Shown here piece after piece: positions 2,012 to 26,217 of a stretch of 32,000 bases of DNA. Positions within the stretch are counted from its first letter, which is position 1, and every line of letters begins with the position of its first letter. The DNA is taken from NCBI GenBank assembly GCA_934246625.1, contig CAKQHZ010000001.1, positions 616,223 to 648,222 of the forward strand, written 5' to 3'. Position numbers and translations under genes: made by a program. The DNA comes from an uncultured Alphaproteobacteria bacterium (GTDB taxonomy: Bacteria > Pseudomonadota > Alphaproteobacteria > Rs-D84 > CACZYB01). Under the pieces are notes generated by a model. It saw only the letters and a list, made by a program, of their open reading frames with translations. It was not told the DNA's origin and did not search any database.

Positions 2012-2087
2012 GGGTGTTTAGCTCAGCTGGTAGAGCAACTGACTTTTAATCAGTGGGTCACAGGTTCAAGTCCTGTAACACCCACCA
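2012..2087 (+). tRNA. tRNA-Lys (anticodon UUU), CCA encoded
   Basis: A 76-nt cloverleaf folds by hand: acceptor GGGTGTT/AACACCC, D arm GCTC-AGCTGGTA-GAGC, anticodon arm ACTGA-CTTTTAA-TCAGT, T arm ACAGG-TTCAAGT-CCTGT, discriminator A plus CCA. Confidence 0.9.
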
Positions 2088-5415: not shown

Positions 5416-5423
5416 GATAATTA

Positions 5424-7787: not shown

Positions 7788-7801
7788 ATTTAGAAATTTT
7801 A

Positions 7802-7835
7802 ACTTCATAGTTTAGGATTATGCAAACTATGAAGT
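7802..7835 (+). terminator. 12-bp perfect hairpin after the zinc-ribbon gene (possible terminator, no T-run)
   Basis: acttcatagttt (7802-7813), 10-nt loop, aaactatgaagt (7824-7835). Confidence 0.4.
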
Positions 7836-7970
7836 ATAAGCAATAATCATATCCAAATTATAGTAACCAAGAACTTCTTTCTATATTTTTTTTAAAGCAT
7901 GATTTACGACAGTTGCAAAATTTGCAGTTATCGAGTTTTCTGCAAATTAGCCATCATTAAAGTGGAAAAC

Positions 7971-7997
7971 TAGTTACGAATGGTATAGGATTAGTAT
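7971..7997 (+). repeat. 27-nt direct repeat, copy A
   Basis: tagttacgaatggtataggattagtat matches 25/27 with 8095-8121. Confidence 0.7.
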
Positions 7998-8094
7998 TCT
8001 CCCAACCAAAATAGAGAATTTTAGAAAATTTGAAAAAAAATGATGAATATGGTAAAACACTAAGAAAACTCTATATTGGAGCAGTTTTCGAGAA

Positions 8095-8121
8095 TAGTTA
8101 TGAATGGTATAGGATTAATAT
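8095..8121 (+). repeat. 27-nt direct repeat, copy B
   Basis: tagttatgaatggtataggattaatat lies about 65 nt upstream of att-like copy 2. Confidence 0.7.
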
Positions 8122-8184
8122 ATAGTCGAAATGGATTGACCGATTTCTGCGGTTTAGAAATTGTTCGGGAATGGATATAAACCC

Positions 8185-8226
8185 CCCACCAAAAATTCAA
8201 AAAGGCTTCCGAAAGGGAGCTTTTTT
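8185..8226 (+). repeat. Direct repeat copy 2 (tRNA-Lys 3' end plus terminator), internal att-like junction
   Basis: Sequence is cccaccaaaaattcaaaaaggcttccgaaagggagctttttt. The stretch aaaaattcaaaaaggcttccgaaagggagctttttt is identical to copy 3. Copy 1 differs by two 1-nt gaps. Confidence 0.7.
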
Positions 8227-8506
8227 CTTTGCCTATAGACCCTAGATTCTTCCTAGTGTAATAATTAGAGATAATCTATAAGTTATTTAGAAATTTCTTT
8301 TTAAGCATTTTCTCTCTATTCTCTATGCTTTATCCGAAGAACGCCTTATGTATTTGAATATACTTAATTTTATAACTGCGGATACAATAGAAAAGTTGTA
8401 GAAAATCTGTGGAGTAGCAAAAAGTATCAAAAAACTAGCTTATGATCTACAGTTTTAAAGGTTTATTTTCCTTGAAAGTAGTTTTTATAGGAGTATAATA
8501 CATCTT

Positions 8507-8821
8507 ATGTATAATAAAAAGGATGTCAAAATGGCTGCAAATTTCAAAAGAAAAGGAAATGAACTTAGAGATATACATACTCGTCTTATTGGAAAAATTG
8601 ATGGTAAATATATTCGTGATGCACATGCTTGTCTTATGGGCAAAATTGATGGAATGGATGTAAAAGATAAACACGGTATAAAAATTGGTCGTTTAGATGG
8701 GGATTACATTCGAGATGTACATAATGTAAAAATTGCAACAAGAAAAGATTTAATAAAGTCAATAGATGGAACAACAGGTGGTATTGAAGATGTCGCTCTA
8801 TATTTGTTTTTTGTAAGATAA
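8507..8821 (+). CDS. Small protein made of four tandem 16-aa repeats
   Basis: Repeats are ELRDIHTRLIGKIDG / KYIRDAHACLMGKIDG / MDVKDKHGIKIGRLDG / DYIRDVHNVKIATRKD, consensus xx(I/V)(R/K)DxHxxx(I/M)G(K/R)(I/L)DG. An alternative start at ATG 8531 has AAGGA 9 nt upstream. Confidence 0.5.
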   Translation: MYNKKDVKMAANFKRKGNELRDIHTRLIGKIDGKYIRDAHACLMGKIDGMDVKDKHGIKIGRLDGDYIRDVHNVKIATRKDLIKSIDGTTGGIEDVALYLFFVR

Positions 8822-8840
8822 ATTTTAAAAAGGGGGCAAA

Positions 8841-9548
8841 ATGGAAAATAAAAAAGAAACAAAGATAGATAATTTTTTAGCATATATTGCTGGTATATGT
8901 GCATTTATTGGTATATGTGCGATAGTTTATAAATTATATCTTTTTGGATTTACAAGAGAAAATATTGCTGATGCTTCAATAAATCTTGCACAAATTTTAA
9001 CAAGTATTGGTGTCTTGTTTGGAGTTCTTTCATCACTTAGAACTTTATTAAAATGTCCTAAAAGTTATTTTTTTAAGGAGTTAGAAAAGTGGAATAAAAA
9101 ATATGGTATATTAACAGATTGCAGCGAAGAATATGAAAAAGGTAAGGGAAAATTTATTAAATGCCAAATGTTGAGAAATCATGCAAATATATTAAAAAAT
9201 AAAGATAACCTTGAAGAACATTCAAAGGCATATATAAATTTTGTTAGAATTCCAACAGAAAATTTAGATGGAAATAAAATAATTTTTTCTTTAAAACCAT
9301 CAATGTTTAAAAAAAATGACAGAAAAGAACTTGAAAAATATGCTGAAAAAATAGTTGAAAAATTAAAAATAAGATATAGCGAAATTATTGATGATGACAA
9401 AGTTAAAATTTCATCTTTTGACAGAAAAGATGAAGTTATATATATTCATCTCGGATTAAACAGTGAATTAGATAATAAAAAAGAAATTTACAATCAAATC
9501 ATAGATATGCTTGATTATATGACTATGGTGTATCTTGCAATAGCTTAG
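8841..9548 (+). CDS. Hypothetical protein with two N-terminal TM helices
   Basis: GGGGG RBS 4 nt upstream of the ATG. TM candidates are FLAYIAGICAFIGICAIVYKLYLFGF and LAQILTSIGVLFGVLSSL. The remainder is charged and unassigned. Confidence 0.6.
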   Translation: MENKKETKIDNFLAYIAGICAFIGICAIVYKLYLFGFTRENIADASINLAQILTSIGVLFGVLSSLRTLLKCPKSYFFKELEKWNKKYGILTDCSEEYEKGKGKFIKCQMLRNHANILKNKDNLEEHSKAYINFVRIPTENLDGNKIIFSLKPSMFKKNDRKELEKYAEKIVEKLKIRYSEIIDDDKVKISSFDRKDEVIYIHLGLNSELDNKKEIYNQIIDMLDYMTMVYLAIA

Positions 9549-9637
9549 TTTAATTTATTCAATACATTGCATCGTAAGGATAGTATATTGAATGGTTCGT
9601 GTAAACTTTTTAAATAAAAATAATAAGAAGTGTAAAA

Positions 9638-10198
9638 ATGAATAAAGAAAATATAATATCTTTTTATGTTGAAATAATAAAATCGATATTGGAAATCTAT
9701 AGATTAAATCAAAATAAAAATACTCAAAAAATTACCAAAAGAATTTTAAATTGGATTATTCGCGAATATAAGGGAAAAATAAAATTATATGCATCAGAAG
9801 ATGCAATAAAATGGGCAAAAAGCCAAGGTATTAATGATAACCTTTCAAATTATAATTGGAAAGATCAAGTAAAAAAGAAAGAAAAAGGTGGTCTTGGGGA
9901 TAAAAAAAGAGAAAATTTACATCTTGAACATATTATTCCTATTTCTCAAATAATAGAAAATTTATTTGAAACAAAAACTTCCAATAATATACAAAATATA
10001 TTAAATGAAATTTCTGTTGCTTGGATTAAAAGGGATCAACAACAAAAATTAGATAAAGGACATAAAAAAGAAAGAGGTGAAAATTTAAAAAAATGTTTAG
10101 AATGTTGTAAAGAATATTGTGGTGAATTGACAGAAATTGGTGAGTACAAAGTACCTTTGGATTATGATAATGAAAGTGAAAAAAATGATATTTTGTAA
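9638..10198 (+). CDS. Hypothetical protein, possible His-Me finger (HNH/DUF1524-like) motif
   Basis: The ORF contains NLHLEHIIPISQ followed about 30 aa later by ISVAWIKRDQQQKLD, reminiscent of HNH-type nucleases. This assignment is weak. Confidence 0.5.
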   Translation: MNKENIISFYVEIIKSILEIYRLNQNKNTQKITKRILNWIIREYKGKIKLYASEDAIKWAKSQGINDNLSNYNWKDQVKKKEKGGLGDKKRENLHLEHIIPISQIIENLFETKTSNNIQNILNEISVAWIKRDQQQKLDKGHKKERGENLKKCLECCKEYCGELTEIGEYKVPLDYDNESEKNDIL

Positions 10199-10454
10199 GT
10201 TTTTTATTTCTTTAACTGGCATATTAGGGTGTTTACAAATATCAAACTTACAAATTTCTTCATGCGTTAATTTTCTTTCTAATATTTTTGAAAGTTTAAA
10301 AGACAAAGAATTTAGAATAGAAATTGATAGATTGAATTTTATATTTACTCCAACTTTAAAAACTGGTTTTAACTTTGATTTAGATTTTGATTTTAAATCA
10401 TTTGATTTCGAAGTTTCATTATTAGGATTGGATTTAAAACTTAAACTTTGGTGA
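10185..10454 (+). CDS. Possible small lipoprotein (hypothetical)
   Basis: The internal ATG at 10185 gives MIFCKFFISLTGILGC, a lipobox-like ILGC. The rest is rich in F/D/L dipeptide-like strands. There is no clear RBS. Confidence 0.3.
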   Translation: MIFCKFFISLTGILGCLQISNLQISSCVNFLSNIFESLKDKEFRIEIDRLNFIFTPTLKTGFNFDLDFDFKSFDFEVSLLGLDLKLKLW

Positions 10455-10460
10455 TAAATT

Positions 10461-10793
10461 ATGTATTATTTAGATAAAGTTATTTACAAAAATTATAAAG
10501 ATATTTTTCATTTAGAATTTTTTTTTGAATTAAAAAGATTTTTTGATATTTCTATAAACATTTTCAATATAATTAATGGTGGATTTTATATAAGAAATTA
10601 TACAAAGCCAGATGATTTTTTCTATGATTCAAAACCAATTTGTTTGTATAAATTAAAAAATATTCATTTTAACTTTGGATATAATAAAGATCTTTATACA
10701 GGTATGGAAATAGGAGATTATCTATCTAATTCAAAAAATAATTTTTATATTCAATTTGGAATTTTAGGATTGATATTTTCTATAGGTCAGTAG
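10461..10793 (+). CDS. Hypothetical protein
   Basis: Supported by the ORF only. It starts 6 nt after the previous stop. Confidence 0.35.
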   Translation: MYYLDKVIYKNYKDIFHLEFFFELKRFFDISINIFNIINGGFYIRNYTKPDDFFYDSKPICLYKLKNIHFNFGYNKDLYTGMEIGDYLSNSKNNFYIQFGILGLIFSIGQ

Positions 10794-11111
10794 GTAAAAT
10801 ATAATTTATTTCCGGATAAAATATATTTTCATTTGTTAGTGATTTTGTGGTAACAAATTTTATCTTGCTATTTTTGGGATAATTACGATATGTTTGTCTA
10901 AAATGAGGCAGATAAAATGTGTAATTTTGATTTAAGAGAAATTGTTGAAGAAAATTTAAATAAAAATTTTGTTTTTTTTACTGGTTTTATACAAAAGATT
11001 TATATAAGATGAAGATTCCTGTGAATTTTTGTGATATTAACTTTTTTTTCTTTACATATAATATACTAAAAAATATAGTATGATTTATTCTTCTATATAC
11101 AGGATTATGTT

Positions 11112-11441
11112 GTGTCAAAATTAAAAGAATTTATGGATATTGATGATTTATCTTCAGCAGATATTGTTGATTTCTTATTTGGTAGTTTAAAACTATTAGA
11201 AAAAGACCCTTCTATTATTTCAAAGATAATTGATGACAGCAAAGATGGCAAAATATGTATGTATATTATTAGTAATCTTGAGGTACAAAGATGGGAACAA
11301 GTAGTATCAAAAAATGATAGAGCATTATGTATTAAATCTCTTAGATATTTATATAGTAAATTACCAAATGAACAAAAAAAATACTATAAAATAGAATTTT
11401 TTGATAAACACCCAGAAATTTTTGAAGGTCAAAACATCTAA
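11112..11441 (+). CDS. Hypothetical protein
   Basis: ORF with a GTG start and AGGA 8 nt upstream. No family recognised. Confidence 0.45.
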   Translation: MSKLKEFMDIDDLSSADIVDFLFGSLKLLEKDPSIISKIIDDSKDGKICMYIISNLEVQRWEQVVSKNDRALCIKSLRYLYSKLPNEQKKYYKIEFFDKHPEIFEGQNI

Positions 11442-11512
11442 TGAAAAGATAAAGAATAGTATTTAATCCATCTTTTCAGTTAATTTCTTTATCAAAGCTA
11501 TATGCTTTTTTA

Positions 11513-12418
11513 TTACAAAAATTCTTTTATCAACTTTGGCAAAAGTTTATTTTGTTTCTTGCTTCCATGACCAAAACTATCAATAATATGCAAAGTTGAT
11601 TTTGGCATAGCTTTGTGTAAAGTATATGCCTGTTCAAGTGGAGTACAGAAATCCAATCTGTTACCAATTATAAGTGTTGGAATATTTTTAATTTTGCCAA
11701 TATTTTCGATAATTTCATTTTCTTTTATAAAATAGTGTTCTGTATAGTAATGCATATAAATTTTAAAGGAATTAACTACCTTATCCCCCAGTTCTTCATC
11801 AAGATTTATTTTTAACTTACCAATTTGATAATCATAGTTTGTAAGATATTTTACAGTCTTTTTAATTTTAGCATTACTTTGCTTAAATAAATTTTCCAAA
11901 TCTTTGTGAGTTTTTATAAGATATGGTGAAAGTTTTTCAATTATGTCAGGGTAGAACATCTTTGAATCTTTGTATGTCCAATTTGCATCTTTCTTCCTTG
12001 CTAAGAAAGTTTGTGATACAATTATTTTATCAACTAATTCAGGGTATGTTTCTGCAAACAAAAGTGCAAGTGTAGAACCCCATGAACCACCAAAAGAAAT
12101 TACCTTTTCTTTTATATTAAGGAAATCAAGAATTCTTTTTGCATCTTTAATTGTATCTTGAGTGGTATTTTTATAAAATAAATCTTTAAATTCAGAATTT
12201 CCACAACCACGTTGATCAAAAATAATTACTTTATAATTTTTGAGATTACAACATTTTACATATTTAAATTTACTTCTTGCTCCTGGACCTCCATGAAAAT
12301 TTAAGATGGTTTTCCCATTTGGGTTACCAAATACTTGGAAGTAAATTTTATGTCCATCAAGTTCGGGAAGATATCCTTTAAAAATAGCCTTTGGCTTATG
12401 TGAAAATATATGAAACAT
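11513..12418 (-). CDS. pip: Proline iminopeptidase (prolyl aminopeptidase, S33 alpha/beta hydrolase)
   Basis: HGGPG oxyanion motif (FHGGPGARS), nucleophile elbow GGSWGSTLAL, C-terminal SFGHGS, about 300 aa. Confidence 0.85.
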   Translation of the reverse strand: MFHIFSHKPKAIFKGYLPELDGHKIYFQVFGNPNGKTILNFHGGPGARSKFKYVKCCNLKNYKVIIFDQRGCGNSEFKDLFYKNTTQDTIKDAKRILDFLNIKEKVISFGGSWGSTLALLFAETYPELVDKIIVSQTFLARKKDANWTYKDSKMFYPDIIEKLSPYLIKTHKDLENLFKQSNAKIKKTVKYLTNYDYQIGKLKINLDEELGDKVVNSFKIYMHYYTEHYFIKENEIIENIGKIKNIPTLIIGNRLDFCTPLEQAYTLHKAMPKSTLHIIDSFGHGSKKQNKLLPKLIKEFL

Positions 12419-12437
12419 TCTATTGCCTTTTTTTAAT

Positions 12438-12472
12438 ATAATATATAATTATTAACATAATATATAATTATT
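12438..12472. promoter_or_regulatory. Perfect 16-bp direct repeat in a divergent promoter spacer (candidate operator)
   Basis: ataatatataattatt occurs at 12438-12453 and again at 12457-12472, inside the 66-bp spacer between pip (-) and the AlaRS-like operon (+). Confidence 0.35.
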
Positions 12473-12484
12473 TCAAGGTGTTAA

Positions 12485-13594
12485 ATGAATAATTATAAAG
12501 AATTTGTATCTGAAATTTCTTCTTTTTTTAATTTAGAAAAAGTATCTGGTGAATATTTCCGATTTAAAGATCAAAAAAATATTAGTAATTTCCCTAAACA
12601 ATCTATTCATGAATATTTTAATGATGTTCCATTAATTCCTGCGGATAATGTCATAAGAACTGATGATAGTACAACGCTTTTTACATGTGCTGGAGTGCAA
12701 CATATAGAAACAATGATAAAAAATAATGAAATTTTAAAAGATTTTAGTATTTATCAACCATCTATAAGAACTCAGTTTATTGGTAAAACAAAAGAAGGAG
12801 TTTCTACATCTTTTGTTAATTTTTCTTCAACTATATTTAATATTTCGAATGATAAATTTTTAGATAAAACAAAAAGTTATATTTCTTTACTTAATAATTA
12901 TGGATACAATAATAATGATTTATTAGTTAGATTTGAAGAAAGATCTAATGCTTGGGGAACTAAAAAATTTACTACATATGTTGCTAGTTTATATTATAAT
13001 AATTTTAGAATGGGAGAATGTATTTTTATGAAATATTTTCCCATAAATTCAAATCAAGTTTCTAATATTATGGAAGTCGGATTTGGTCTAGAAAGAATGG
13101 AATGGTTATCAAAAAAAAATAATTATTATTTTTCTAGATACAAAGAAATTTATGATCAATTTAAAAATAATGATGTTTCTATTGATCAAATTACAACTAT
13201 CATTGATTCTGTAAGAACTTCAATCTTAATTGCTGGTAATGGAATAGTTTCAAGTAATAATAATCATGGATATAGATTAAGACAGTTATTAAAGCATTTT
13301 GTTTTTAATAATGCCAATATATCAATACCTTTAAATAAATTAGAACGAATAGCATATGATGAATGGAAATCTAATACATTCGTTCAGTATGATAAAATAT
13401 GTGATATTATAGGAAAAGAAGTTGAAAGAAATGAACATGCATATTTATTAGATTTATTAAAGAGGTGTAATATAAAAACAAATATAGATATAACATTACC
13501 AAATGATGCTTTTATAAGATCTTTAAAAAGTCGTATTTATAGAGAGAATACAGACGTGATATTAGATAAATTATTTAAAGAAAAGGTTAAATAA
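12485..13594 (+). CDS. Truncated alanyl-tRNA-synthetase-like protein (class II catalytic core only, 369 aa)
   Basis: Matches to E. coli AlaRS recalled from memory: TLFTCAGVQH ~ LFTNAGMNQF, SIRTQ ~ CVRAGG, FVNFS ~ LGNFSF, EVGFGLERMEWL ~ DTGMGLERIAAVL, IIDSVRTSILIAGNGIVSSNNNHGYRLRQLL ~ [31 protein letters not shown]. It lacks the editing and C-Ala domains. Confidence 0.8.
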   Translation: MNNYKEFVSEISSFFNLEKVSGEYFRFKDQKNISNFPKQSIHEYFNDVPLIPADNVIRTDDSTTLFTCAGVQHIETMIKNNEILKDFSIYQPSIRTQFIGKTKEGVSTSFVNFSSTIFNISNDKFLDKTKSYISLLNNYGYNNNDLLVRFEERSNAWGTKKFTTYVASLYYNNFRMGECIFMKYFPINSNQVSNIMEVGFGLERMEWLSKKNNYYFSRYKEIYDQFKNNDVSIDQITTIIDSVRTSILIAGNGIVSSNNNHGYRLRQLLKHFVFNNANISIPLNKLERIAYDEWKSNTFVQYDKICDIIGKEVERNEHAYLLDLLKRCNIKTNIDITLPNDAFIRSLKSRIYRENTDVILDKLFKEKVK

Positions 13595-14266
13595 ATGGGA
13601 GCTCTAATTTCTGATTTTTTATCTTACAAGCATTCTGTTTATGATGAAATTTCTGATTTATCAAAAAAAGAGATAGATAATTTTTACTCTTTTATATTAG
13701 GTGGTGTAAAATTTAATAATTCAAGTCCTAAACTTATTATGATGTTGGGTATTAGTGGAGCGGGGAAAAGTACATTTTTTAATAATGCAAAGCAATATTA
13801 TAAAGATTATGCTTTTTTATCAGGTGATGAAATTATGCATAATTTACAAATTTTTAAAGAATTAAAATTATTAAATAAATCATCACATAATGATTTTCGA
13901 ATTTGTGAAACAATTTCTAGAAAGCTATCATTCTATATTTTAGATTATTTAATTTCAAATAAAGCAAATATTTTTTATGATTGTGGAGGTTTGGATTTAA
14001 ATAAAAAAAATATGGTTAGATATATAAGTGATTTGGGATATAAAATAGAAATTAATGCTATTCTAGCAGATAAAAAAATTGCTATCGATAGAGTAATAAA
14101 ACGTCATTATAAAAATGGAGGTGGTTATATACCAGTTGATTTAATTGAACAAAATTTCAATGAGGTTTTACCAGCTATTAATTATTATAAGCAATTTGTT
14201 GATAAGATAAATATTTATAACAATAATAATAAAATTTTTTTAGAAGAAACTTATATAAAAAGATAA
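13595..14266 (+). CDS. P-loop kinase (zeta-toxin / APS-kinase-like small-molecule kinase fold)
   Basis: Walker A is MMLGISGAGKST, followed by FLSGDEIMHNL (compare (I/L)DxDxxRxxH in zeta toxins and LDGDNVRHGL in APS kinase). The ATG directly follows the stop of the upstream gene. Confidence 0.7.
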   Translation: MGALISDFLSYKHSVYDEISDLSKKEIDNFYSFILGGVKFNNSSPKLIMMLGISGAGKSTFFNNAKQYYKDYAFLSGDEIMHNLQIFKELKLLNKSSHNDFRICETISRKLSFYILDYLISNKANIFYDCGGLDLNKKNMVRYISDLGYKIEINAILADKKIAIDRVIKRHYKNGGGYIPVDLIEQNFNEVLPAINYYKQFVDKINIYNNNNKIFLEETYIKR

Positions 14267-14276
14267 GGAGTTTTAT

Positions 14277-15527
14277 ATGGATATTTGTATTTTTAATTCA
14301 AACACTAATGTTAATGCACAAGATTATGAAGTCGTTGAACGTAAAGGTATTGGCCATCCTGATACAATCTGTGATACTTTAGCAGAAAAGATAAGTGCTA
14401 ATTATTCTCTATATACATATCAAAAATATGGACATATATTTAGACATATGATTGATAAATTATCTATTTTAGGGGGAAAAACAAAAGTTTATTTTGGAGG
14501 TGGAGAATTTATAAAACCTATAAGAATACTACTAAATGGACGATTTACTGGAAACTTCTGTGATGAAAAAATTCCATATATTGATATTGCTACAGAAACT
14601 ATTTATAAACATATGAAATTCCTATTTCCTATGATAGATTGTAAAAAAAATATAGAAATAATAGATAATACGCATTCATCGCAAGGTCCTGGTGTTGTAT
14701 ACAAAAAAGATGGAACAACGAATAATGAACGTTCTAGTTTTTTTAACATAAAAAATGAAGCATTTATGCAATATCATAATAATATGAATAGAACAAATGA
14801 TACATCTACTACTGTTAGTTTTTATCCATATACAGTTCTAGAAAATGTTGTGTTATTTGTAGAAAATCAATTAAATTCTGAAGAATTTAAAAAGAAGTAT
14901 CCTTTTGTTGGTAACGATATAAAAGTAATGGGAACAAGAATTGGCAAAAACATAGATATTACAACTTGTATACCTTTTATTTCTTTATATACTCCTGATA
15001 AAAATTTTTACAAAGACAATATAAGCTTTTTAAAAAATCTTTTAATCAATATGTTATCAAAAAAATATTCGGATTATTCTTTTAATATTTCTATAAATAC
15101 AAGAGATAATTTAGAAAACGATGATTTATATTTAACATTAACAGGAAGTGCTGTTGAAAGTGGAGATGAGGGGGCCGTTGGACGAGGTAATAGAAGTTGT
15201 GGATTTATTCCTTTTTGCCGTAATGTATCTTTAGAGGCTCCGTGTGGTAAGAATCCTGTATATCATACAGGGAAGTTATTTACTGCTATTGGAAATATTA
15301 TATCTAATAGAATTTATAGCCAAACAGGCATTGAAAATACTGTTTATTTAACAAGTCAGATGGGGGGTAAAATAGAAGAAACTTGGAAGATTGCTATTGG
15401 TTTAACAAATAGTCCTTCTATTTCACTAGAATTAAAAAATACAATTGAAGATATTGTAAATGAAGAGTTAAAAAATCATAATAAAACTACACAAGATATA
15501 ATTTTGGAAAAGATAAAATTATATTAG
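14277..15527 (+). CDS. Archaeal-type S-adenosylmethionine synthetase (MAT)-like protein
   Basis: EVVERKGIGHPDTICD, RILLNGR, LTLTGSAVESGDEGAVGRGNR and EAPCGKNPVYHTGK match the archaeal MAT family signature (M. jannaschii MAT recalled from memory), not bacterial MetK. AAGGAG lies 6 nt upstream of the ATG. Confidence 0.85.
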   Translation: MDICIFNSNTNVNAQDYEVVERKGIGHPDTICDTLAEKISANYSLYTYQKYGHIFRHMIDKLSILGGKTKVYFGGGEFIKPIRILLNGRFTGNFCDEKIPYIDIATETIYKHMKFLFPMIDCKKNIEIIDNTHSSQGPGVVYKKDGTTNNERSSFFNIKNEAFMQYHNNMNRTNDTSTTVSFYPYTVLENVVLFVENQLNSEEFKKKYPFVGNDIKVMGTRIGKNIDITTCIPFISLYTPDKNFYKDNISFLKNLLINMLSKKYSDYSFNISINTRDNLENDDLYLTLTGSAVESGDEGAVGRGNRSCGFIPFCRNVSLEAPCGKNPVYHTGKLFTAIGNIISNRIYSQTGIENTVYLTSQMGGKIEETWKIAIGLTNSPSISLELKNTIEDIVNEELKNHNKTTQDIILEKIKLY

Positions 15528-15646
15528 ATAAAATTTAATATACTTAAGATTTATTCCTATGAAAATAATATTAAGTGTAGGCTAAATGACTTTTTATAGA
15601 TGAGTTTTTTATGGTTGGTTTCGGTTATCCGAAATAGATTAGAAAC

Positions 15647-16048: not shown

Positions 16049-16795
16049 TTGTTGAAATTTTTCTTATTTCTTAGCATTTCAAATATAGCAATGGCGAATG
16101 AAATTTTTGACAATGAAAATATTAAAAAACTTGATAGTGCTGTATCAAATATTGTTAATGAAGTAAAAAATCGTTATCCAGAAGATAGTTCTGAACTTAA
16201 TTTTACCGATGACATTCAGGATCAAACAAAACTTAGTATTATCCGCACAATATTGGCAAAAAATATATACAATGAATATAAAGAAAAATTTATTCAGGAA
16301 GTGCAAAACAAGTCGGATTCAAGTGGGCGGACATTAAAAAAGACCATTGATGGAAATTACACTGTTTATTCATTAAAAGGTGGTGAAAAAGATTGCTTTA
16401 CAGACAACTTGGGTAATGAAATTTGCGACCAAGATTCAAATGTTGAATTTGTGTTGTTGGAAGTACATGAAGAAAAGGACGGTGATAATTTTTCAGGAGA
16501 CCTTTGGTATATGACACAAGATAAGGAAAACCAAAAAGCAAAGACTTATGATGTTGTGGCTGAATTTAATACAAAAGGAAATGCCAGTGATTCAACATTG
16601 GTGATTAGCGAGCATGTTATGGATTTATCTGATGCACAGGCGATGTTAAAAAATGATTATGAACAAGAAAAATTTACAAAAAAATATCATTCTAGAAACT
16701 ATCCAAAATCACTTCAATATACGATAAAATCAGGTGAAATTAGTTCCTTTAGCTACGACGAAGTTGAAGAGGGAAATTTTGGAGAAATAAGATGA
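16049..16795 (+). CDS. Secreted hypothetical protein (start uncertain)
   Basis: The TTG start at 16049 gives a Sec-like leader MLKFFLFLSISNIAMA/NE but has no RBS. The frame is open back to 15956 and would be joined to ATG 15939 by a +1 G change. The stop overlaps the next start (ATGA). Confidence 0.6.
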   Translation: MLKFFLFLSISNIAMANEIFDNENIKKLDSAVSNIVNEVKNRYPEDSSELNFTDDIQDQTKLSIIRTILAKNIYNEYKEKFIQEVQNKSDSSGRTLKKTIDGNYTVYSLKGGEKDCFTDNLGNEICDQDSNVEFVLLEVHEEKDGDNFSGDLWYMTQDKENQKAKTYDVVAEFNTKGNASDSTLVISEHVMDLSDAQAMLKNDYEQEKFTKKYHSRNYPKSLQYTIKSGEISSFSYDEVEEGNFGEIR

Positions 16796-17871
16796 AAAAA
16801 GTTTCAATATTAGTTTTGGTAAGTTTTATTTTTAATTGTGGTGAGGCTTTTTCTTCACCAAGAAATTCAAGGGTAAGAGCCTCCGGTGGAAGACGTGCCT
16901 TTGTCCGTAGTGTGGGAAGTGAAAATGCTGGCGGTGTTGCCGTTCAAACTTCGACAGAGGAAACTGTATCTGCTTCTTCTACCTTTGATGCTGATATTTC
17001 GATTTCTGGGGAGAAGGTAAATACCGTGGAGGTTCGTGAAAAAATTGCCAACCTTCAACAAAAAATTTCTGAAGTTCGTTCCGAATGTTCTGGCATTAAA
17101 AAGGACCTTGATACAATATTCGGTTTCACGACTGCAACCACTGCTACCTCTGGTCTTGGTGGTGTTGCGTCTGGTGGTGCTTTGGTAACTGGAATTATAA
17201 AGGTGAAAACGGATAAGAAATTGGAGGACCTTTCCAAACTTTCGTCCGTTGATTTGTATAATTATGCCCTATCGTTGGAAAATGAGGAAAAGAAAACAAA
17301 ATTTGAAAAGAAATCCAAAACTTTGGGAAATGTCAGAACCGGACTTATGGCAGGTGCGACGGTGACAAGTGTTGTTTCAACCGGAACCTCAATTGGGGCA
17401 ACTGTGAATGCTGATAAACTTGCGAAAAAGATGTCTGATTGCAACCAAAAATTGTATGAATTGAAAATTGCAAAATCGGAATTGGATTCCCTTGAATCAA
17501 CCGACAAATCGGCGGTTGAGGTTGGCGAAAATGCAACCAAAATTTTAAGTGTTTGCACTGGATACAATAAAAACAATATAGATACTACTGTGAAGAATAA
17601 AATGATTGCCTCTGCAATCATCTCTGGTATTGGAACTGCAACTGGTGCAACGGGAACGATTACTTCCGCGATGGCTAATTCAAAGAAAGTTCGCGAAGAC
17701 GACAGTGTTAAGGGGCAAAAGAAAGAGAAAAACTTGAACCTTACTGCAAACATTATGGCTGGAATCACGACTGGAACAAGTTTGTCAACTACGGTTATAA
17801 GTGCCACTGCTATTGCCGATGCCCAAAAAGACAGTAAGATGGCAGAGAAATGTGAGGCAGTGTTGAAGTAA
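16792..17871 (+). CDS. Secreted protein with four Gly/Thr/Ala-rich glycine-zipper-like segments
   Basis: GGAG RBS 7 nt upstream and signal peptide MKKVSILVLVSFIFNCGEAFS. The four segments are TSGLGGVASGGALVTGII, GLMAGATVTSVVSTGTSIGATV, ASAIISGIGTATGATGTITSAMA and NIMAGITTGTSLSTTVISATAIA. They are separated by charged, coiled-coil-like spacers, each with a single Cys. Confidence 0.75.
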   Translation: MKKVSILVLVSFIFNCGEAFSSPRNSRVRASGGRRAFVRSVGSENAGGVAVQTSTEETVSASSTFDADISISGEKVNTVEVREKIANLQQKISEVRSECSGIKKDLDTIFGFTTATTATSGLGGVASGGALVTGIIKVKTDKKLEDLSKLSSVDLYNYALSLENEEKKTKFEKKSKTLGNVRTGLMAGATVTSVVSTGTSIGATVNADKLAKKMSDCNQKLYELKIAKSELDSLESTDKSAVEVGENATKILSVCTGYNKNNIDTTVKNKMIASAIISGIGTATGATGTITSAMANSKKVREDDSVKGQKKEKNLNLTANIMAGITTGTSLSTTVISATAIADAQKDSKMAEKCEAVLK

Positions 17872-18112: not shown

Positions 18113-18346
18113 TTACCCCTCTAAATATTTAGAGAATTGCTCCCAGGAAAGGTTTGTCGCCCTCATAACCTTACAAATACTCTCCGTAGATGGCCATCTG
18201 AATTTGCCACTAGGATAAAACCTTTTACTCTTATTAAATGCTGTAGCATCAAGACCTGCCTTTTTAGCCAAAGCAGAAACAGAAATACCGTTTATGTATG
18301 CAATCTTGTCAATAGTCCCCCAGATTTTAGAATGTTCTGTATCCAT
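18113..18346 (-). CDS. Cro/CI-type HTH protein (phage-repressor N-terminal-domain-like, 77 aa)
   Basis: The internal ATG at 18346 with AAGGAG 7 nt upstream is preferred over the listed 18433 start. The sequence IWGTIDKIAYINGISVSALAKKAGLDATAFNKSKRFYPSGKFRWPSTESICKVMRATN resembles the HTH domain of alphaproteobacterial phage-repressor/S24-type regulators. There is no peptidase domain. Confidence 0.7.
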   Translation of the reverse strand: MDTEHSKIWGTIDKIAYINGISVSALAKKAGLDATAFNKSKRFYPSGKFRWPSTESICKVMRATNLSWEQFSKYLEG

Positions 18347-18493
18347 AACACAACTCCTTTGATTATAACTCTCTCTTACGACAATCTCATACAATATATT
18401 ACAACTTATACTAGAAAATAAAAAGAAATACAAGAGGAAGATATTCTTATCGTGGGGGATAAGAAAATACTTTGTTGAAATTTTAATAATTAT

Positions 18494-18730
18494 TTAGATG
18501 ATTTTTTTCTTTTTTTTAGTTTGTCTTTGAGATTCATTTTGTTCTTTTTCATCAGATACAGCCCAAACAAGACTTATTACCCAAAAGAAAAAAGTCCAAC
18601 CCAAAAATAGATTTAATACAAATATTCCAAAAAAATGTTTCTTTTTATATGCAAAAATTGCTGGAATAAAATAGATAAGTGAAAAAATTATTAAAATTAT
18701 AAGTGCTAAGATTACTTCAATTACGTTCAT
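18494..18730 (-). CDS. Superinfection-immunity (Imm)-family-like small membrane protein
   Basis: Two TM helices, with YFIPAIFAYKKKHFFGIFVLNLFLGWTFFFWVISLVWAV matching the Imm_superinfect pattern (P..IA....H...I..N...GWT..GW...L.WA). Confidence 0.65.
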   Translation of the reverse strand: MNVIEVILALIILIIFSLIYFIPAIFAYKKKHFFGIFVLNLFLGWTFFFWVISLVWAVSDEKEQNESQRQTKKKKKII

Positions 18731-18759: not shown

Positions 18760-18835
18760 TGGTGGGTGATTGGGGATTTGAACCCCAGACCCACTGATTA
18801 AGAGTCAGTTGCTCTACCAACTGAGCTAATCACCC
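18760..18835 (-). tRNA. tRNA-Lys (anticodon CUU), CCA encoded
   Basis: The reverse complement folds as GGGTGAT-TA-GCTC-AGTTGGTA-GAGC-A-ACTGA-CTCTTAA-TCAGT-GGGTC-TGGGG-TTCAAAT-CCCCA-ATCACCC-A-CCA (76 nt). Confidence 0.9.
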
Positions 18836-18985: not shown

Positions 18986-19933
18986 GTGAAAAGTAATCCA
19001 AAAGTGTCAATCGTTGTTCCTGTATATAAAGTTGAAAAATATATTCATTTATGTATGAAAACTTTGCTTAACCAAACATTAAAGGATATTGAGATAATTT
19101 TGGTTGATGATGGTTCGCCAGATAATTGTGGAAAAATTTGTGATGATTATGCAAAACTTGATAATCGTGTAAAAGTTGTTCATCAAACAAATGGTCGTCA
19201 AGGTAAGGCAAGAAATAATGGTGTTAAATTTGCCACAGGAGAATATATAGGATTTGTTGATAGTGATGATTGGGTTGATGTTAAAATGTATGAGGAACTT
19301 TATACAAAGGCAAAATCCACAAATGCAGATATAGTTATGTGTGATTATTTTAGAACAAAGGCGATGGGTGAAAAGCCAACTTCTTATAAATCAAAAATTG
19401 ATAAAGTTTTTTTGGAAAAAGATGTTTTTAATGTTAAAAATTTAAGTGCTTCACCATCAAGAAAATCATTTTTTTCAATAGTTGTATGTTGGAATAAAAT
19501 TTTTAAACGAGATTTTTATTTGAAAAATGTGAAGTTCCCAGAAAATTTAATTTTTGAAGATAGTCCGCCTATGTTTTTTGCATTTGCAAAGGCAGATAGG
19601 ATTTCTGTGGTGGATAAAAAACTTTATTTTTACAGAATTTCTAATCAAAATAGTATGTCTTTGTCAAGTGATAAAAAAGTTTTGGATTTGTTAAAAATTC
19701 TGAAATTAAATCTTGATAATTTGAATATTCTAGATTATAATTTGCTACGAAAAACTGTAATATCATCTTTGATTCGTGATGCAGTGCATAAATTGAAACG
19801 ACTTGAAGGTGATGTGAAACAACAATATATCTTTGGACTTAGAGATATTGTTGAAAAAATAAAACAAATGAATTTATATGACTATATTACTTTGAAAGAT
19901 AAAGTCAGGTTATGGTTTTATCTTTATTTTTAG
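18986..19933 (+). CDS. Family 2 glycosyltransferase (GT-A)
   Basis: VSIVVPVYKVEKYI, ILVDDGSPD and FVDSDDW motifs. A GTG start is required to include the first beta-strand. Confidence 0.85.
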   Translation: MKSNPKVSIVVPVYKVEKYIHLCMKTLLNQTLKDIEIILVDDGSPDNCGKICDDYAKLDNRVKVVHQTNGRQGKARNNGVKFATGEYIGFVDSDDWVDVKMYEELYTKAKSTNADIVMCDYFRTKAMGEKPTSYKSKIDKVFLEKDVFNVKNLSASPSRKSFFSIVVCWNKIFKRDFYLKNVKFPENLIFEDSPPMFFAFAKADRISVVDKKLYFYRISNQNSMSLSSDKKVLDLLKILKLNLDNLNILDYNLLRKTVISSLIRDAVHKLKRLEGDVKQQYIFGLRDIVEKIKQMNLYDYITLKDKVRLWFYLYF

Positions 19934-19962
19934 TTTTATAAGTTGCTTAAGAAAGGTTGTAA

Positions 19963-20433: not shown

Positions 20434-20436
20434 TTT

Positions 20437-21630: not shown

Positions 21631-21654
21631 TAATAAAAACGAAAGGTTATAAAA

Positions 21655-22692: not shown

Positions 22693-22693
22693 T

Positions 22694-23989: not shown

Positions 23990-24004
23990 TGAAAGGAAAT
24001 TTAT

Positions 24005-26216: not shown

Positions 26217-26217
26217 T

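What the first reader, a model, noticed from the sequence alone, without database searches (positions are those of the whole stretch)
11513..15527. Island-borne operon of a truncated AlaRS-like adenylation core, a P-loop kinase and an archaeal-type SAM-synthetase-like enzyme, divergent from a proline iminopeptidase
Seen in the sequence:
- Three tightly coupled + strand genes: 12485-13594, 13595-14266 (ATG directly after the preceding stop) and 14277-15527 (AAGGAG 6 nt upstream).
- They are transcribed divergently from pip (11513-12418, -) across a 66-bp spacer.
- ORF1 (369 aa) matches the class II AlaRS catalytic core block by block (see feature evidence). It ends where tRNA-recognition, editing and C-Ala domains would continue in a genuine AlaRS of about 870 aa.
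- ORF2 is a zeta-toxin/APS-kinase-like P-loop kinase.
- ORF3 (416 aa) has the archaeal-type methionine adenosyltransferase signatures (VERKGIGHPDTICD, TGSAVESGDEGAVGRGNR), not the bacterial MetK type.
Established:
- The AlaRS core forms alanyl-adenylate. N-terminal AlaRS fragments of roughly this size are reported to retain adenylate synthesis but not efficient tRNA charging (from memory).
- MAT-fold enzymes direct a nucleophile at C5' of ATP and expel triphosphate.
- PIP-family hydrolases remove N-terminal Pro or Ala.
Inference: this gene set, in a tRNA-flanked AT-rich island, is not a housekeeping arrangement, and I know of no described system with this composition. Two hypotheses:
- (a) Synthesis, activation and self-protection for an alanyl-nucleoside or SAM-like metabolite. 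The analogy, from memory and to be verified, is ascamycin: AlaRS-like genes in the producer and a PIP-family de-alanylating enzyme in the sensitive species.
- (b) A conflict or defence module that modifies or depletes ATP, methionine or tRNA-Ala-related pools.
Basis: partly seen in the sequence, partly recalled or inferred. Interest (0 to 1): 0.9.

Follow-up and report, generated by a model that had tools for sequence, protein, structure and literature searches.

The report
Mobile SAM-synthetase / AlaRS-like enzyme cassette
A 4-kb mobile gene cassette in a gut alphaproteobacterium joins an archaeal-type SAM synthetase, a cut-down alanyl-tRNA-synthetase look-alike, a zeta-type kinase and an aminopeptidase; it is a rare variant of a gene trio found in many bacterial lineages that nobody appears to have described and that probably builds and un-builds an amino-acid-capped adenosine compound.

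Summary
In detail: pip (11513-12418, -) diverges from ORF1, ORF2 and ORF3 (12485-15527, +), with the stated overlaps and ribosome-binding site. ORF1 is a stand-alone AlaRS catalytic-fragment homologue that includes much of the tRNA-recognition domain. ORF2 is a zeta/PezT-like kinase. ORF3 is a PF01941 archaeal-type MAT.

- **Discrete unit:** the four genes are exactly the DNA shared (11512-15609) between three unrelated genomic contexts.
- **Not housekeeping:** conspecific strains carry a nonsense allele of ORF1 and split MAT genes.
- **Conserved trio:** the AlaRS-like/MAT pair is the core of a widespread module. In 39 of 39 metagenomic loci, ORF3-clade MATs sit beside an AlaRS-like gene and a Peptidase_S51 gene. 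A second MAT clade shows the same, often with GT4 and PIG-L.
- **Rare variant:** in the window, S33 pip stands where S51 normally is, and a kinase is added.

The closest characterised precedent is ascamycin AcmF/AcmE: a 370-aa truncated AlaRS-like Ala-tRNA-dependent transferase acting on an adenosine analogue, next to an α/β-hydrolase. My best guess (about 0.35) is that SAM made in situ is aminoacylated by ORF1, de-aminoacylated by pip and phosphorylated by ORF2. I found no description of the trio in the papers I could search.

The parts
11512..15609 (.). Whole four-gene cassette, a discrete transferable unit
   Evidence: blastn: the only DNA shared with L003 (90% identity) is window 11512-15609. 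With L007 it is 11513-14241, and with the conspecific L110 it is 11512-15545 (97.9%). Flanks are unrelated in each case. The roughly 245-aa proteins downstream are unrelated to each other.
11513..12418 (-). S33 α/β-hydrolase, prolyl-aminopeptidase-like (pip); candidate de-aminoacylating enzyme that takes the place of the S51 peptidase of related cassettes
   Evidence: TIGR01249 E=2.6e-63, 214 bits, below its cutoff of 259.75. 158 bits to Serratia PAP 1qtr and 139 bits to Xanthomonas citri PIP 1azw. GGSWGS nucleophile motif. It always travels with ORF1.
12419..12484 (.). 66-bp divergent control region with a 16-nt direct repeat ATAATATATAATTATT (12438-12453 and 12457-12472)
   Evidence: Sequence. 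The spacer is 93% conserved among four cassette copies. The promoter scan is not informative in this AT-rich DNA.
12485..13594 (+). ORF1: stand-alone truncated AlaRS-like protein (aminoacylation-domain fold plus the tRNA-recognition helix; no editing or C-Ala domains)
   Evidence: Foldseek: AlaRS top hits, E=9e-11. hhalign to E. coli AlaRS, 97.5% probability. Residue mapping: R95=R69, F110, E178 at the N212 position, E197=D235, G199xG201xE203-R204 = motif 3, D241..R244..G262YRLR266 = DHIR..GRGYVLRR.
13595..14266 (+). ORF2: zeta/PezT/AvrRxo1-type P-loop kinase, translationally coupled to ORF1
   Evidence: PF06414 E=1.5e-14. Walker A GISGAGKST and invariant S76-G77-D78. Foldseek top hits PezT and zeta (TM 0.59-0.68), then AvrRxo1, on a low-confidence model with pLDDT 60.6. 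A 50%-identical homologue follows an S51 gene and an RHM-type MAT in L029.
14277..15527 (+). ORF3: archaeal-type (PF01941) methionine adenosyltransferase homologue of the bacterial 'RHM' clade
   Evidence: PF01941 E=7e-100. 233 bits to S. solfataricus MAT 4hpv. Retains GHPD His, LYLT Tyr, DIKV and GDEG Asp, and NDTS. LRHMIDK replaces the archaeal LHHNxDK. 50-62% identical to a very large bacterial clade.
2012..2087 (+). tRNA-Lys(UUU): left edge of the strain-variable region that holds the cassette (context, not part of the module)
   Evidence: ARAGORN and Rfam. Homology with conspecific L110 runs over 1-2156 and then breaks.
18760..18835 (-). tRNA-Lys(CUU): right edge of the AT-rich variable region (context)
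   Evidence: ARAGORN and Rfam; composition profile.

Best explanation
The four genes form a self-contained, horizontally mobile small-molecule module. It is a rare derivative of a widespread bacterial trio: a PF01941 MAT, a truncated AlaRS-like enzyme and an aminopeptidase-type serine hydrolase.

Proposed mechanism (the parts list is shown; the chemistry is inferred):
1. ORF3 makes S-adenosylmethionine, or a close S-adenosyl analogue, from ATP.
2. ORF1 binds this adenosyl compound in the pocket that in AlaRS holds alanyl-adenylate. It attaches a small amino acid (probably alanyl) to it. The donor is either aminoacyl-tRNA, as for AcmF in ascamycin biosynthesis, or an aminoacyl-adenylate that ORF1 makes itself.
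3. pip removes the N-terminal aminoacyl cap. In most relatives an S51 peptidase would do this.
4. ORF2 phosphorylates a sugar hydroxyl of the compound, in the way zeta toxins and AvrRxo1 phosphorylate UDP-GlcNAc or NAD. This either protects or activates it. In other cassettes GT4/PIG-L and phosphatases play the tailoring role.

The product would be a capped and uncapped (masked and unmasked) adenosyl metabolite.
For: **Shown**
- The cassette is a discrete unit in three unrelated contexts.
- From the AlaRS-like side, 12 of the 14 non-window-type genomic loci show an adjacent PF01941 MAT (complete, or fragmentary in L019) and all 14 an adjacent S51 gene. In the two without a MAT the contig ends at the AlaRS-like gene.
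- From the MAT side, 39 of 39 RHM-clade loci with at least 2 kb of flank have AlaRS-like and S51 genes. Four LHHNFDK hits at 34-37% identity have none.
- Fusion proteins link AlaRS-like to S51, to GT4 and to a SAM-type methyltransferase domain. The methyltransferase fusion lies three genes from a MAT.
- ORF1 comes from the HHN-cassette lineage and ORF3 from the RHM lineage. The two MAT clades are therefore interchangeable partners, which fits both supplying the same product.
- S51 partners keep the GxSAG nucleophile in 75 of 76 cases, and pip keeps GGSWGS. Both are N-terminal-residue peptidase families.
- L029 has S51, then MAT, then the kinase homologue. So pip occupies S51's role in the window.
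- ORF1 retains every adenine-nucleotide-pocket hallmark and the α-amino-binding acidic residue, in 36 of 36 family members. AlaRS N212 is replaced by Glu or Asp in 32 of 36.
- ORF3 retains the MAT catalytic residues.

**Precedent**
- AcmF is 370 aa and consists of the AlaRS aminoacylation and tRNA-recognition domains only, with D232E, as in ORF1's E197.
- It alanylates 5'-O-sulfamoyl-2-chloroadenosine held in the adenylate site, using Ala-tRNA.
- The adjacent α/β-hydrolase AcmE resembles the Xanthomonas enzyme that dealanylates ascamycin (PMC12945691, PMC4257720).
- Zeta-family kinases act on sugar hydroxyls of nucleotides (PMC5491322, PMC5087710, PMC5923241).
Against: - There is no chemical evidence. 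That SAM is the acceptor is inferred only from gene linkage and pocket residues.
- The N212-position residue is Glu or Asp, not the Gln of AcmF, and I could not compare ORF1 with AcmF directly.
- No exporter, regulator or immunity-type synthetase copy accompanies the cassette.
- In Patescibacteria the trio sits among housekeeping genes (SerRS in 21 loci). That fits a physiological metabolite better than an antibiotic.
- L007 keeps pip, ORF1 and the kinase without the MAT. L111 has the pair without a hydrolase.
- The gating loop and two Met-carboxylate-binding residues of ORF3 differ from characterised archaeal MATs. Its substrate could therefore differ from Met.
- The kinase model has low confidence.
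Confidence: 0.35

Rival explanations
1. Mycothiol/bacillithiol-like logic. The AlaRS-like enzyme is an ATP-dependent amino acid:amine ligase, like the CysRS paralogue MshC. It acylates a glucosamine glycoside or another amine. The MAT only supplies SAM, and the peptidase is a recycling amidase like Mca.
For: - Eight of the HHN-type cassettes carry GT4 and PIG-L directly after S51, and the gut alphaproteobacterial ones also carry a PHP phosphoesterase, comparable to MshA/MshA2/MshB.
- The PIG-L partner's best NCBIfam matches are MshB, Mca and BshB, and the GT4 partner weakly matches BshA.
- An AlaRS-like::GT4 fusion exists.
- L111 places the pair among sugar-tailoring genes.
- ORF1 keeps the residues needed for adenylate formation: R95, F110, E203-R204.
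Against: - GT4 and PIG-L are absent from the window and were not detected next to the triad in any of the 80 RHM-type metagenomic loci. One RHM-type locus, L025, has a GT4-family gene nearby. The MAT is invariant.
- The core encodes no methyltransferase to use the SAM.
- All matches to Msh/Bsh models are far below their cutoffs.
Confidence: 0.15
2. The AlaRS-like protein is a new kind of SAM-consuming enzyme. SAM lies in the active site as an isostere of alanyl-adenylate. It is either cyclised or cleaved to a small amino acid plus methylthioadenosine (for example azetidine-2-carboxylate or ACC), or it donates its aminocarboxypropyl or methyl group. The peptidases handle peptides or conjugates that begin with that residue.
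For: - The MAT linkage is obligate.
- The family-specific acidic residue at the N212 position, together with the conserved Arg and the D235-position acid, would complement the S+, COO- and NH3+ groups of SAM (inference).
- AlaRS is solved with an azetidine-2-carboxyl-adenylate analogue, 5v59, which is among the fold hits.
- A proline-type iminopeptidase is the partner in the window.
- One fusion carries a TYW2/Trm5-like SAM-binding domain.
Against: - No class II synthetase fold is known to do such chemistry.
- S51 enzymes are Asp-specific where characterised.
- The proposal rests on inference alone and has no precedent.
Confidence: 0.12
3. Conflict or defence module. The zeta-like kinase, or the product of the pathway, is toxic and is held in check by the other genes. 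It acts against phage or competitors.
For: - The cassette sits in a strain-variable hotspot next to tRNA-Lys.
- In L110 its neighbours are GmrSD, HEPN and a Dam methylase. In L007 they are an integrase, HipA and a resolvase. L001 and L023 have SLFN_AlbA_2, a helicase-PLD protein and a methylase nearby.
- ORF2 is zeta-toxin-like and retains the Walker A motif and the catalytic Asp.
- Alleles decay in several strains.
Against: - No PADLOC model matches beyond P-loop noise.
- There is no epsilon-type antitoxin gene.
- No sensor or effector domains are present.
- The trio is not found on phage contigs.
- In Patescibacteria it lies in core, housekeeping neighbourhoods.
- The kinase is absent from nearly all cassettes.
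Confidence: 0.12
4. The AlaRS-like enzyme acts on a macromolecule: a tRNA, as GluQRS does, or a tRNA-mimicking protein, as EpmA does on EF-P. The MAT supplies a SAM-derived group.
For: - The tRNA-recognition helix is among the best-conserved parts of the family: D241, R244 and G262-Y-R-L-R266 in more than 90% of members.
- In Patescibacteria the neighbours include SerRS, TsaD and MiaA.
Against: - AcmF also keeps this domain, because it binds aminoacyl-tRNA as the donor.
- The peptidase, GT4/PIG-L and kinase partners point to a small molecule.
- The SerRS synteny may simply be shared ancestry among related genomes.
Confidence: 0.1
5. ORF1 and ORF3 are merely diverged housekeeping alaS and metK copies.
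For: I could not scan the host genome for canonical alaS or metK.
Against: - ORF1 scores 24 bits against the alaS equivalog cutoff of 457. It lacks the editing and C-Ala domains and AlaRS N212.
- A conspecific lineage carries a stop codon at G177 on 8 contigs, and TGA is a real stop in this genome.
- Split MAT alleles occur on long contigs.
- L007 lacks the MAT.
Confidence: 0.02

Closest known systems
AcmF / AcmE of the ascamycin gene cluster (Streptomyces)
   Same: AcmF is a stand-alone truncated AlaRS-like protein (370 aa; ORF1 is 369 aa) with only the aminoacylation and tRNA-recognition domains. It has Asp-to-Glu at the AlaRS D235 position, as does ORF1 (E197). Its substrate is an adenosine derivative held in the adenylate pocket. 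It is encoded beside an α/β-hydrolase related to the Xanthomonas aminopeptidase that removes the alanyl cap (PMC12945691, PMC4257720).
   Different: - The acm cluster has a full-length AlaRS copy (AcmD) and sulfamate-forming genes, but no MAT and no zeta-type kinase.
- AcmF has Gln at the N212 position, whereas this family has Glu or Asp.
- AcmF is said to have lost most ATP and Ala activation residues, whereas this family keeps the motif 2 Arg and Phe and the motif 3 Glu-Arg.
- I could not compare the sequences directly.
Mycothiol / bacillithiol biosynthesis (MshA-MshA2-MshB-MshC; BshA-BshB-BshC)
   Same: It combines a GT4 glycosyltransferase, a PIG-L/LmbE deacetylase, a phosphatase and a synthetase-paralogue ligase that acylates the freed glucosamine amine. 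Related cassettes (L001, L010, L013, L015-L018) have exactly such a gene set.
   Different: - The synthetase paralogue here is class II AlaRS-like, not class I CysRS-like.
- A MAT and an S51 peptidase are obligatory partners.
- The window's cassette has no GT4 or PIG-L.
- Matches to the Msh/Bsh models are far below their cutoffs.
Archaeal methionine adenosyltransferase (PF01941; TkMAT, SsMAT, MjMAT)
   Same: ORF3 aligns over its full length (233 bits to 4hpv). It retains the catalytic His, the adenine-stacking Tyr, and the Asp residues that bind the ribose hydroxyls (one of them also the methionine amino group).
   Different: - ORF3 belongs to a bacterial clade with LRHMxDK instead of LHHNxDK. 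Those residues bind the Met carboxylate in TkMAT.
- The gating loop is about 25 residues longer.
- ORF3 scores below all NCBIfam MAT equivalog cutoffs.
- The clade is always linked to AlaRS-like and S51 genes.
Zeta / PezT toxins and AvrRxo1
   Same: ORF2 matches the Pfam family, has the Walker A motif and the catalytic Asp position, and gives these proteins as its best fold matches. Their known substrates are sugar hydroxyls of UDP-GlcNAc, UDP-MurNAc and NAD (PMC5923241, PMC5087710, PMC5491322).
   Different: - No epsilon/PezA-type antitoxin is present.
- ORF2 is shorter (223 aa).
- It is translationally coupled inside a biosynthetic-looking operon.
- Its substrate is unknown.
Prolyl aminopeptidase (S33), including the Xanthomonas citri enzyme
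   Same: pip scores 139-158 bits to solved prolyl aminopeptidases and has the GGSWGS nucleophile. A Xanthomonas aminopeptidase dealanylates ascamycin (PMC4257720). That it is the same protein as the PDB entry 1azw rests on my memory only.
   Different: - pip is below the TIGR01249 equivalog cutoff (214 against 259.75 bits).
- It is part of a mobile cassette and takes the place of an S51 peptidase.
Microcin C / MccF-type 'Trojan horse' aminoacyl-nucleotides
   Same: An aminoacyl group is linked to an adenosine derivative, and a dedicated serine peptidase cleaves the aminoacyl-nucleotide bond for self-protection (from memory).
   Different: - Microcin C is made from a ribosomal peptide by a MccB adenylyltransferase.
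- The window has no MccB, peptide gene or exporter.
- MccF belongs to family S66, not S51 or S33.

Membership tests
Canonical alanyl-tRNA synthetase (alaS) | Scores above the curated equivalog threshold (TIGR00344 / TIGR03683) | tested here: not met
   24.3 bits against a cutoff of 457, and 31.4 against 744.7. PF01411 scores 28.8, below GA 30.3.
Canonical alanyl-tRNA synthetase (alaS) | Class II motifs 2 and 3 and the AlaRS catalytic fold | tested here: met
   R95=R69, F110, and GFGLER = GMGLER. Foldseek top hits are all AlaRS.
Canonical alanyl-tRNA synthetase (alaS) | Asn212 in the alanine/adenylate site; editing and C-Ala domains | tested here: not met
   Glu or Asp occupies the N212 position in 32 of 36 family members. 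The protein ends at 369 aa, at about residue 420 of the E. coli enzyme.
AcmF-type AlaRS-like aminoacyl-tRNA-dependent transferases | Truncated architecture: aminoacylation and tRNA-recognition domains only | tested here: met
   369 aa, aligned to E. coli AlaRS residues 7-323 and beyond. AcmF is 370 aa (PMC4257720).
AcmF-type AlaRS-like aminoacyl-tRNA-dependent transferases | Active-site substitutions D232E and N219Q | tested here: inconclusive
   The D-to-E change is present in the window type (E197), but most of the family keeps Asp (30 of 36). The N212 position is Glu or Asp, not Gln.
AcmF-type AlaRS-like aminoacyl-tRNA-dependent transferases | Neighbouring α/β-hydrolase related to an aminoacyl-nucleoside hydrolase | tested here: met
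   pip is divergent from ORF1 and always co-transferred with it.
AcmF-type AlaRS-like aminoacyl-tRNA-dependent transferases | Direct sequence relatedness to AcmF; use of Ala-tRNA as donor | not testable with these tools
   The AcmF sequence (GenBank KJ817374) could not be obtained. Donor usage needs an enzyme assay.
Archaeal-type methionine adenosyltransferase (PF01941) | Pfam gathering threshold over the full length | tested here: met
   335 bits against GA 27, covering residues 9-410.
Archaeal-type methionine adenosyltransferase (PF01941) | Catalytic His, adenine-stacking Tyr, ribose and amino Asp residues (TkMAT H33, Y271, D201, D283) | tested here: met
   GHPD, LYLT, DIKV and GDEG are all present.
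Archaeal-type methionine adenosyltransferase (PF01941) | Met-carboxylate binders His62/Asn64, gating-loop Asp144/Leu145, and the NCBIfam equivalog score | tested here: not met
   LRHMIDK replaces LHHNxDK in the whole clade. The loop is remodelled with an insertion. 311 bits against cutoffs of 435-577.
Zeta toxin / PezT kinases | Pfam threshold, Walker A, catalytic Asp about 20 residues after the P-loop Lys | tested here: met
   54.4 bits against GA 22.3. GISGAGKST with K58, and invariant D78.
Zeta toxin / PezT kinases | Cognate epsilon/PezA antitoxin gene immediately upstream | tested here: not met
   The upstream gene is ORF1, and its stop codon abuts the ORF2 start. In L029 the upstream gene is the MAT.
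Proline iminopeptidase (TIGR01249 equivalog) | Score above the curated cutoff; Ser nucleophile GxSxG | tested here: inconclusive
   214 bits, below the cutoff of 259.75. GGSWGS is present, and pip scores 139-158 bits to solved PIPs.
Conserved bacterial trio: PF01941 MAT + AlaRS-like + Peptidase_S51 (defined here) | MAT and AlaRS-like genes adjacent | tested here: met
   ORF1 and ORF3 lie in one operon. Relatives.
Conserved bacterial trio: PF01941 MAT + AlaRS-like + Peptidase_S51 (defined here) | Adjacent S51 serine peptidase | tested here: not met
   The cassette has no S51 gene and carries the S33 pip instead. L029 links the kinase type to an S51 cassette.
Known anti-phage defence systems (PADLOC-DB v2) | Any component matching a defence-system profile | tested here: not met
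   No hits for ORF1, ORF3, pip or the five L001 proteins. ORF2 gives only P-loop-level matches, E of 1e-3 or weaker.
Mycothiol/bacillithiol-type GlcN-glycoside pathway | GT4 and PIG-L deacetylase in the same cassette | tested here: not met
   Absent from the window cassette. Present in 8 related cassettes.

The most novel reading that the evidence does not exclude
Bacteria of many phyla (Patescibacteria, reduced-genome Bacilli and Clostridia, gut Alphaproteobacteria, Chloroflexota) possess an unrecognised branch of SAM metabolism. In it, a dedicated archaeal-type MAT feeds SAM to a class II synthetase fold that has been repurposed to bind SAM in place of alanyl-adenylate. The result would be a hitherto unknown aminoacyl-SAM or other SAM-derived metabolite, whose level is set by a partner aminopeptidase. 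The window's cassette would be a mobile, kinase-bearing version of this pathway.
Probability: 0.25. Interest if true: 0.9.

Novelty: new variant of a known kind. Interest (0 to 1): 0.74.

Why it matters
- **A second family of stand-alone AlaRS-like enzymes.** The only characterised one I found in the searched literature is AcmF, from one Streptomyces antibiotic cluster. This family has at least 294 clusters at 50% identity and is spread over many phyla. It is always wired to its own archaeal-type SAM synthetase and a peptidase. That points to a common but unstudied adenosyl or SAM-derived metabolite.
- **Where it occurs.** The metabolite would be present in candidate-phyla-radiation bacteria and in gut bacteria.
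- **Annotation.** It explains why bacteria carry 'archaeal' MATs at all, and it warns against annotating these genes as plain metK or alaS.
- **Testability.** The pathway can be tested with three or four easily expressed proteins.
- **Possible uses.** If the product is an aminoacyl-adenosine mimic or a caged SAM, it would matter for antibiotic discovery, for SAM biology and for enzymatic synthesis of SAM analogues.

Tried and rejected
- **Housekeeping alaS/metK copies:** rejected. The scores are far below the equivalog cutoffs, domains are missing, and nonsense and split alleles occur in conspecific strains.
- **S51 partner as a glutaminase (GATase_3 hit), which would make an AsnA-like amidotransferase:** rejected. 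The nucleophile motif is GxSAG (Ser) in 75 of 76 partners.
- **The roughly 245-aa downstream protein as a fifth module gene:** rejected. The proteins are unrelated to each other.
- **UGA reassignment as an explanation for the TGA at G177 in L110:** unlikely. TGA ends a gene in an ATGA overlap in the window.
- **Known defence system:** PADLOC is negative.
- **Phage-borne copies:** none were found with two viral scans. A first attempt with the broad alignment failed for lack of a conserved stretch.
- **Word-based homology searches** under-reported both the ORF1 family (7 hits) and the kinase (6 hits). The exhaustive profile search and pattern scans were needed.
- **Literature:** nine searches found no description of the trio.
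- **AFDB fold search:** unavailable.
- **Sudo et al. 1996:** could not be read.
- **Promoter scan:** uninformative in AT-rich DNA, with 39 sites against 41 expected.
- **Kinase model:** low confidence (pLDDT 60.6), so its fold matches only corroborate the Pfam hit.

Full report
**Observation**

The divergent spacer is 66 bp. The ORF1 stop codon abuts the ORF2 start, and AAGGAG lies 6 nt before the ORF3 start. tRNA-Lys genes lie at 2012-2087 and 18760-18835. The region between them dips to 19-25% GC over 3-5 and 9-15 kb (29-31% over 6-9 kb), against about 27-33% outside.

**Identity of the parts**

- **ORF3** is a full-length PF01941 archaeal-type MAT homologue (E=7e-100; 233 bits to S. solfataricus MAT 4hpv).
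- **ORF2** is a Zeta_toxin-family P-loop kinase (E=1.5e-14). It has the Walker A motif GISGAGKST and an invariant Asp78 at the position of the zeta catalytic Asp. A low-confidence model (pLDDT 60.6) finds PezT and zeta first (TM 0.59-0.68), then AvrRxo1, ahead of NMP kinases.
- **pip** is a prolyl-aminopeptidase-type S33 hydrolase. It scores 214 bits to TIGR01249, below the cutoff, and 139-158 bits to solved enzymes including the Xanthomonas citri PIP.
- **ORF1** is only marginally AlaRS-like by Pfam (28.8 bits, below GA 30.3), but three further lines settle it. A family profile hits only AlaRS chains in the PDB. Profile-profile alignment to E. coli AlaRS gives 97.5% probability. An AlphaFold model (pLDDT 69.7) has AlaRS as its top 17 Foldseek hits.

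Contrary to the finding, ORF1 includes the conserved tRNA-recognition helix: D241..R244..G262YRLR266 corresponds to DHIR..GRGYVLRR.

**The cassette is a discrete, dispensable unit**

- DNA homology to a relative at 88-90% identity (L003, an 'uncultured Alphaproteobacteria' MAG) covers exactly 11512-15609. Homology to L007 covers 11513-14241. The flanks are unrelated in both.
- In a conspecific strain (L110) the left flank is 99% identical up to tRNA-Lys(UUU). The cassette is 97.9% identical, but everything around it differs: 9.4 kb of the window (2157-11511) is missing, and GmrSD, HEPN and Dam genes follow the cassette.
- The proteins encoded downstream in the four contexts are unrelated to each other.
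- L110's ORF1 carries GGA-to-TGA at codon 177, and that allele is on 8 contigs. TGA is a real stop in this genome.
- Other strains have 242-aa ORF1 fragments and split MATs on long contigs. L007 has lost the MAT.

So these are not housekeeping alaS and metK genes. I could not scan the whole genome to confirm the canonical copies.

**The wider family**

- An exhaustive profile search finds 294 clusters at 50% identity with E below 1e-10, mostly stand-alone proteins of 330-430 aa.
- Fifteen genomes with homologues span Alphaproteobacteria, Patescibacteria, Chloroflexota, Gracilibacteria and Bacilli.
- In these the AlaRS-like gene is preceded by a PF01941 MAT and followed by a Peptidase_S51 gene. 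Eight also have GT4 and PIG-L, and the gut alphaproteobacterial ones have a PHP phosphoesterase as well.
- Seen from the MAT side, ORF3 belongs to a very large bacterial clade at 50-62% identity. Its members all read LRHM[VI]DK where archaeal MATs read LHHNxDK. In TkMAT those residues bind the methionine carboxylate (PMC3853416).
- Three sampled members, and 39 of 39 metagenomic loci with enough flanking DNA, have AlaRS-like and S51 genes directly adjacent. Four LHHNFDK hits at 34-37% identity have none.
- S51 partners keep the serine nucleophile GxSAG in 75 of 76 cases. They are distant PepE/cyanophycinase relatives.
- Fusion proteins join AlaRS-like to S51, to GT4 and to a SAM-type methyltransferase domain. 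The methyltransferase fusion lies three genes from a MAT in a sugar-tailoring cluster.

**How the window's version arose**

The window's cassette is a rare derivative of this trio.

- ORF1 is nearest to the AlaRS-like proteins of 'HHN' cassettes (190-222 bits, against 75-132 for 'RHM' partners). ORF3 is 'RHM' type. This is a re-assortment, and it implies that the two MAT clades are equivalent partners.
- The kinase has almost no relatives. Its one outside homologue (50% identity) follows an S51 gene and an RHM MAT in L029.
- None of the 80 metagenomic loci has the kinase or pip.
- So S33 pip has displaced S51, a non-orthologous replacement by another N-terminal-residue peptidase.

**Active sites**

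Across 36 family members:

| Feature | AlaRS equivalent | Conservation |
|---|---|---|
| Motif 2 Arg (R95) | R69 | invariant |
| Aromatic F110 | motif 2 aromatic | invariant |
| Motif 3 Arg (R204); Glu (E203) | R242; E241 | R204 invariant; E203 35 of 36 |
| Acidic residue at position 197 | D235 | 36 of 36 (Glu in the window type) |
| Acidic residue at position 178 | N212 | Glu or Asp in 32 of 36 |

ORF3 keeps the MAT catalytic His, the stacking Tyr and the Asp residues. Its gating loop is remodelled and about 25 residues longer.

**Comparison with what is known**

The closest characterised system is the AcmF/AcmE pair of ascamycin biosynthesis.

- AcmF is 370 aa, with AlaRS aminoacylation and tRNA-recognition domains only, and carries D232E and N219Q.
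- It transfers Ala from Ala-tRNA to the sulfamoyl nitrogen of an adenosine analogue that occupies the adenylate site.
- AcmE is an adjacent α/β-hydrolase resembling the Xanthomonas aminopeptidase that removes the alanyl cap (PMC12945691; PMC4257720).

Zeta-family kinases phosphorylate sugar hydroxyls of UDP-GlcNAc, UDP-MurNAc and NAD (PMC5923241, PMC5087710, PMC5491322). GT4 plus PIG-L plus a synthetase paralogue recalls mycothiol and bacillithiol synthesis, but the matches are far below the curated cutoffs. No paper I could search describes a MAT/AlaRS-like/S51 module. PADLOC has no model for any part. No phage contig carries it.

**Mechanism**

My best reading, at about 0.35, is as follows.

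1. The MAT makes SAM or a near analogue.
2. The AlaRS-like enzyme holds this adenosyl compound where AlaRS holds alanyl-adenylate. The extra acidic residue would suit a cationic ligand.
3. It aminoacylates the compound, from aminoacyl-tRNA or from its own adenylate.
4. The peptidase (pip here) removes the cap.
5. The kinase here, or GT4/PIG-L and phosphatases elsewhere, tailors a hydroxyl.

What is shown: the parts, their conserved linkage, the retained catalytic motifs and the precedent. What is inferred: SAM as the acceptor, the bond formed, and the purpose.

Points against an antibiotic-type role are the absence of an exporter and the position of the trio among housekeeping genes in Patescibacteria (SerRS in 21 loci). 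Rival readings are an MshC-like ligase, a SAM-cleaving or alkyl-transfer enzyme, a conflict module, a macromolecule modifier, and diverged housekeeping copies. Each is listed with its test.

**Verdict**

- The finding is real.
- The adenylation-only view and the choice of 'trio' need correcting.
- The more important result lies outside the given coordinates: a widespread, apparently undescribed MAT, AlaRS-like and peptidase module, of which this cassette is a mobile, kinase-bearing, pip-substituted variant.

Noticed in passing
window 5424-7787 (+): A 787-aa protein made of nine DUF4379 treble-clef zinc-finger repeats (PF14311, E=7.8e-168). It lies inside a 9.4-kb stretch (2157-11511) that is absent from the conspecific strain L110. 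The neighbouring ORFs (2649-5223, 8841-10198) have no Pfam match.
   Followed up: partly
window 12438-12453 and 12457-12472: A perfect 16-nt direct repeat, ATAATATATAATTATT, with starts 19 nt apart, in the pip/ORF1 divergent spacer. It is largely conserved in four cassette copies and may be an operator.
   Followed up: partly
window 16049-17871 (+): Two overlapping genes (ATGA overlap at 16792-16795) encode probable secreted proteins with no Pfam match. The second is rich in Ala, Gly, Thr and Ser. They are specific to this strain's context.
   Followed up: partly
window 18113-18730 (-): A small protein with a weak Cro/C1-type HTH match and a 78-aa membrane protein sit directly beside tRNA-Lys(CUU). 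They could be remnants of an integrated element.
   Followed up: no
window 18986-29998 (+): A long run of same-strand genes begins with a GT2-like glycosyltransferase. Window 19019-19332 is 67-70% identical to five tandem GT2 genes in L003. This is probably a surface-polysaccharide locus, and the cassette lies next to such loci in both genomes.
   Followed up: partly
L110 6001-7110 and 9387-12531: A conspecific strain has ORF1 inactivated by a single GGA-to-TGA change at the near-invariant Gly177 codon; the allele is on 8 contigs. There the cassette is followed by Dam-methylase, HEPN (RiboL-PSP) and GmrSD-type genes.
   Followed up: yes
L007 1-13226: A cassette copy lacks the MAT and has an altered kinase C-terminus. 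It lies next to a tyrosine integrase, a HipA/HTH toxin-antitoxin pair and a resolvase.
   Followed up: partly
L019 9203-13564: The Gracilibacteria copy of the MAT, AlaRS-like, S51, GT4 and PIG-L cassette appears as many short fragments under genetic code 11. The likely cause is that this lineage reads UGA as Gly (code 25). I did not re-translate it.
   Followed up: no
L111 1-13490: The AlaRS-like::methyltransferase fusion sits in a 12-gene cluster with three other methyltransferases, a polysaccharide deacetylase, GT2 and GT4 genes, two radical-SAM enzymes, a PF01941 MAT and a DegT-type aminotransferase. This is a larger pathway built around the same pair.
   Followed up: no
L023/L035-L082 (Patescibacteria loci): Seryl-tRNA synthetase is encoded within 4 kb of the MAT/S51/AlaRS-like trio in 21 loci. 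This may be inherited synteny or a functional link to tRNA metabolism.
   Followed up: no
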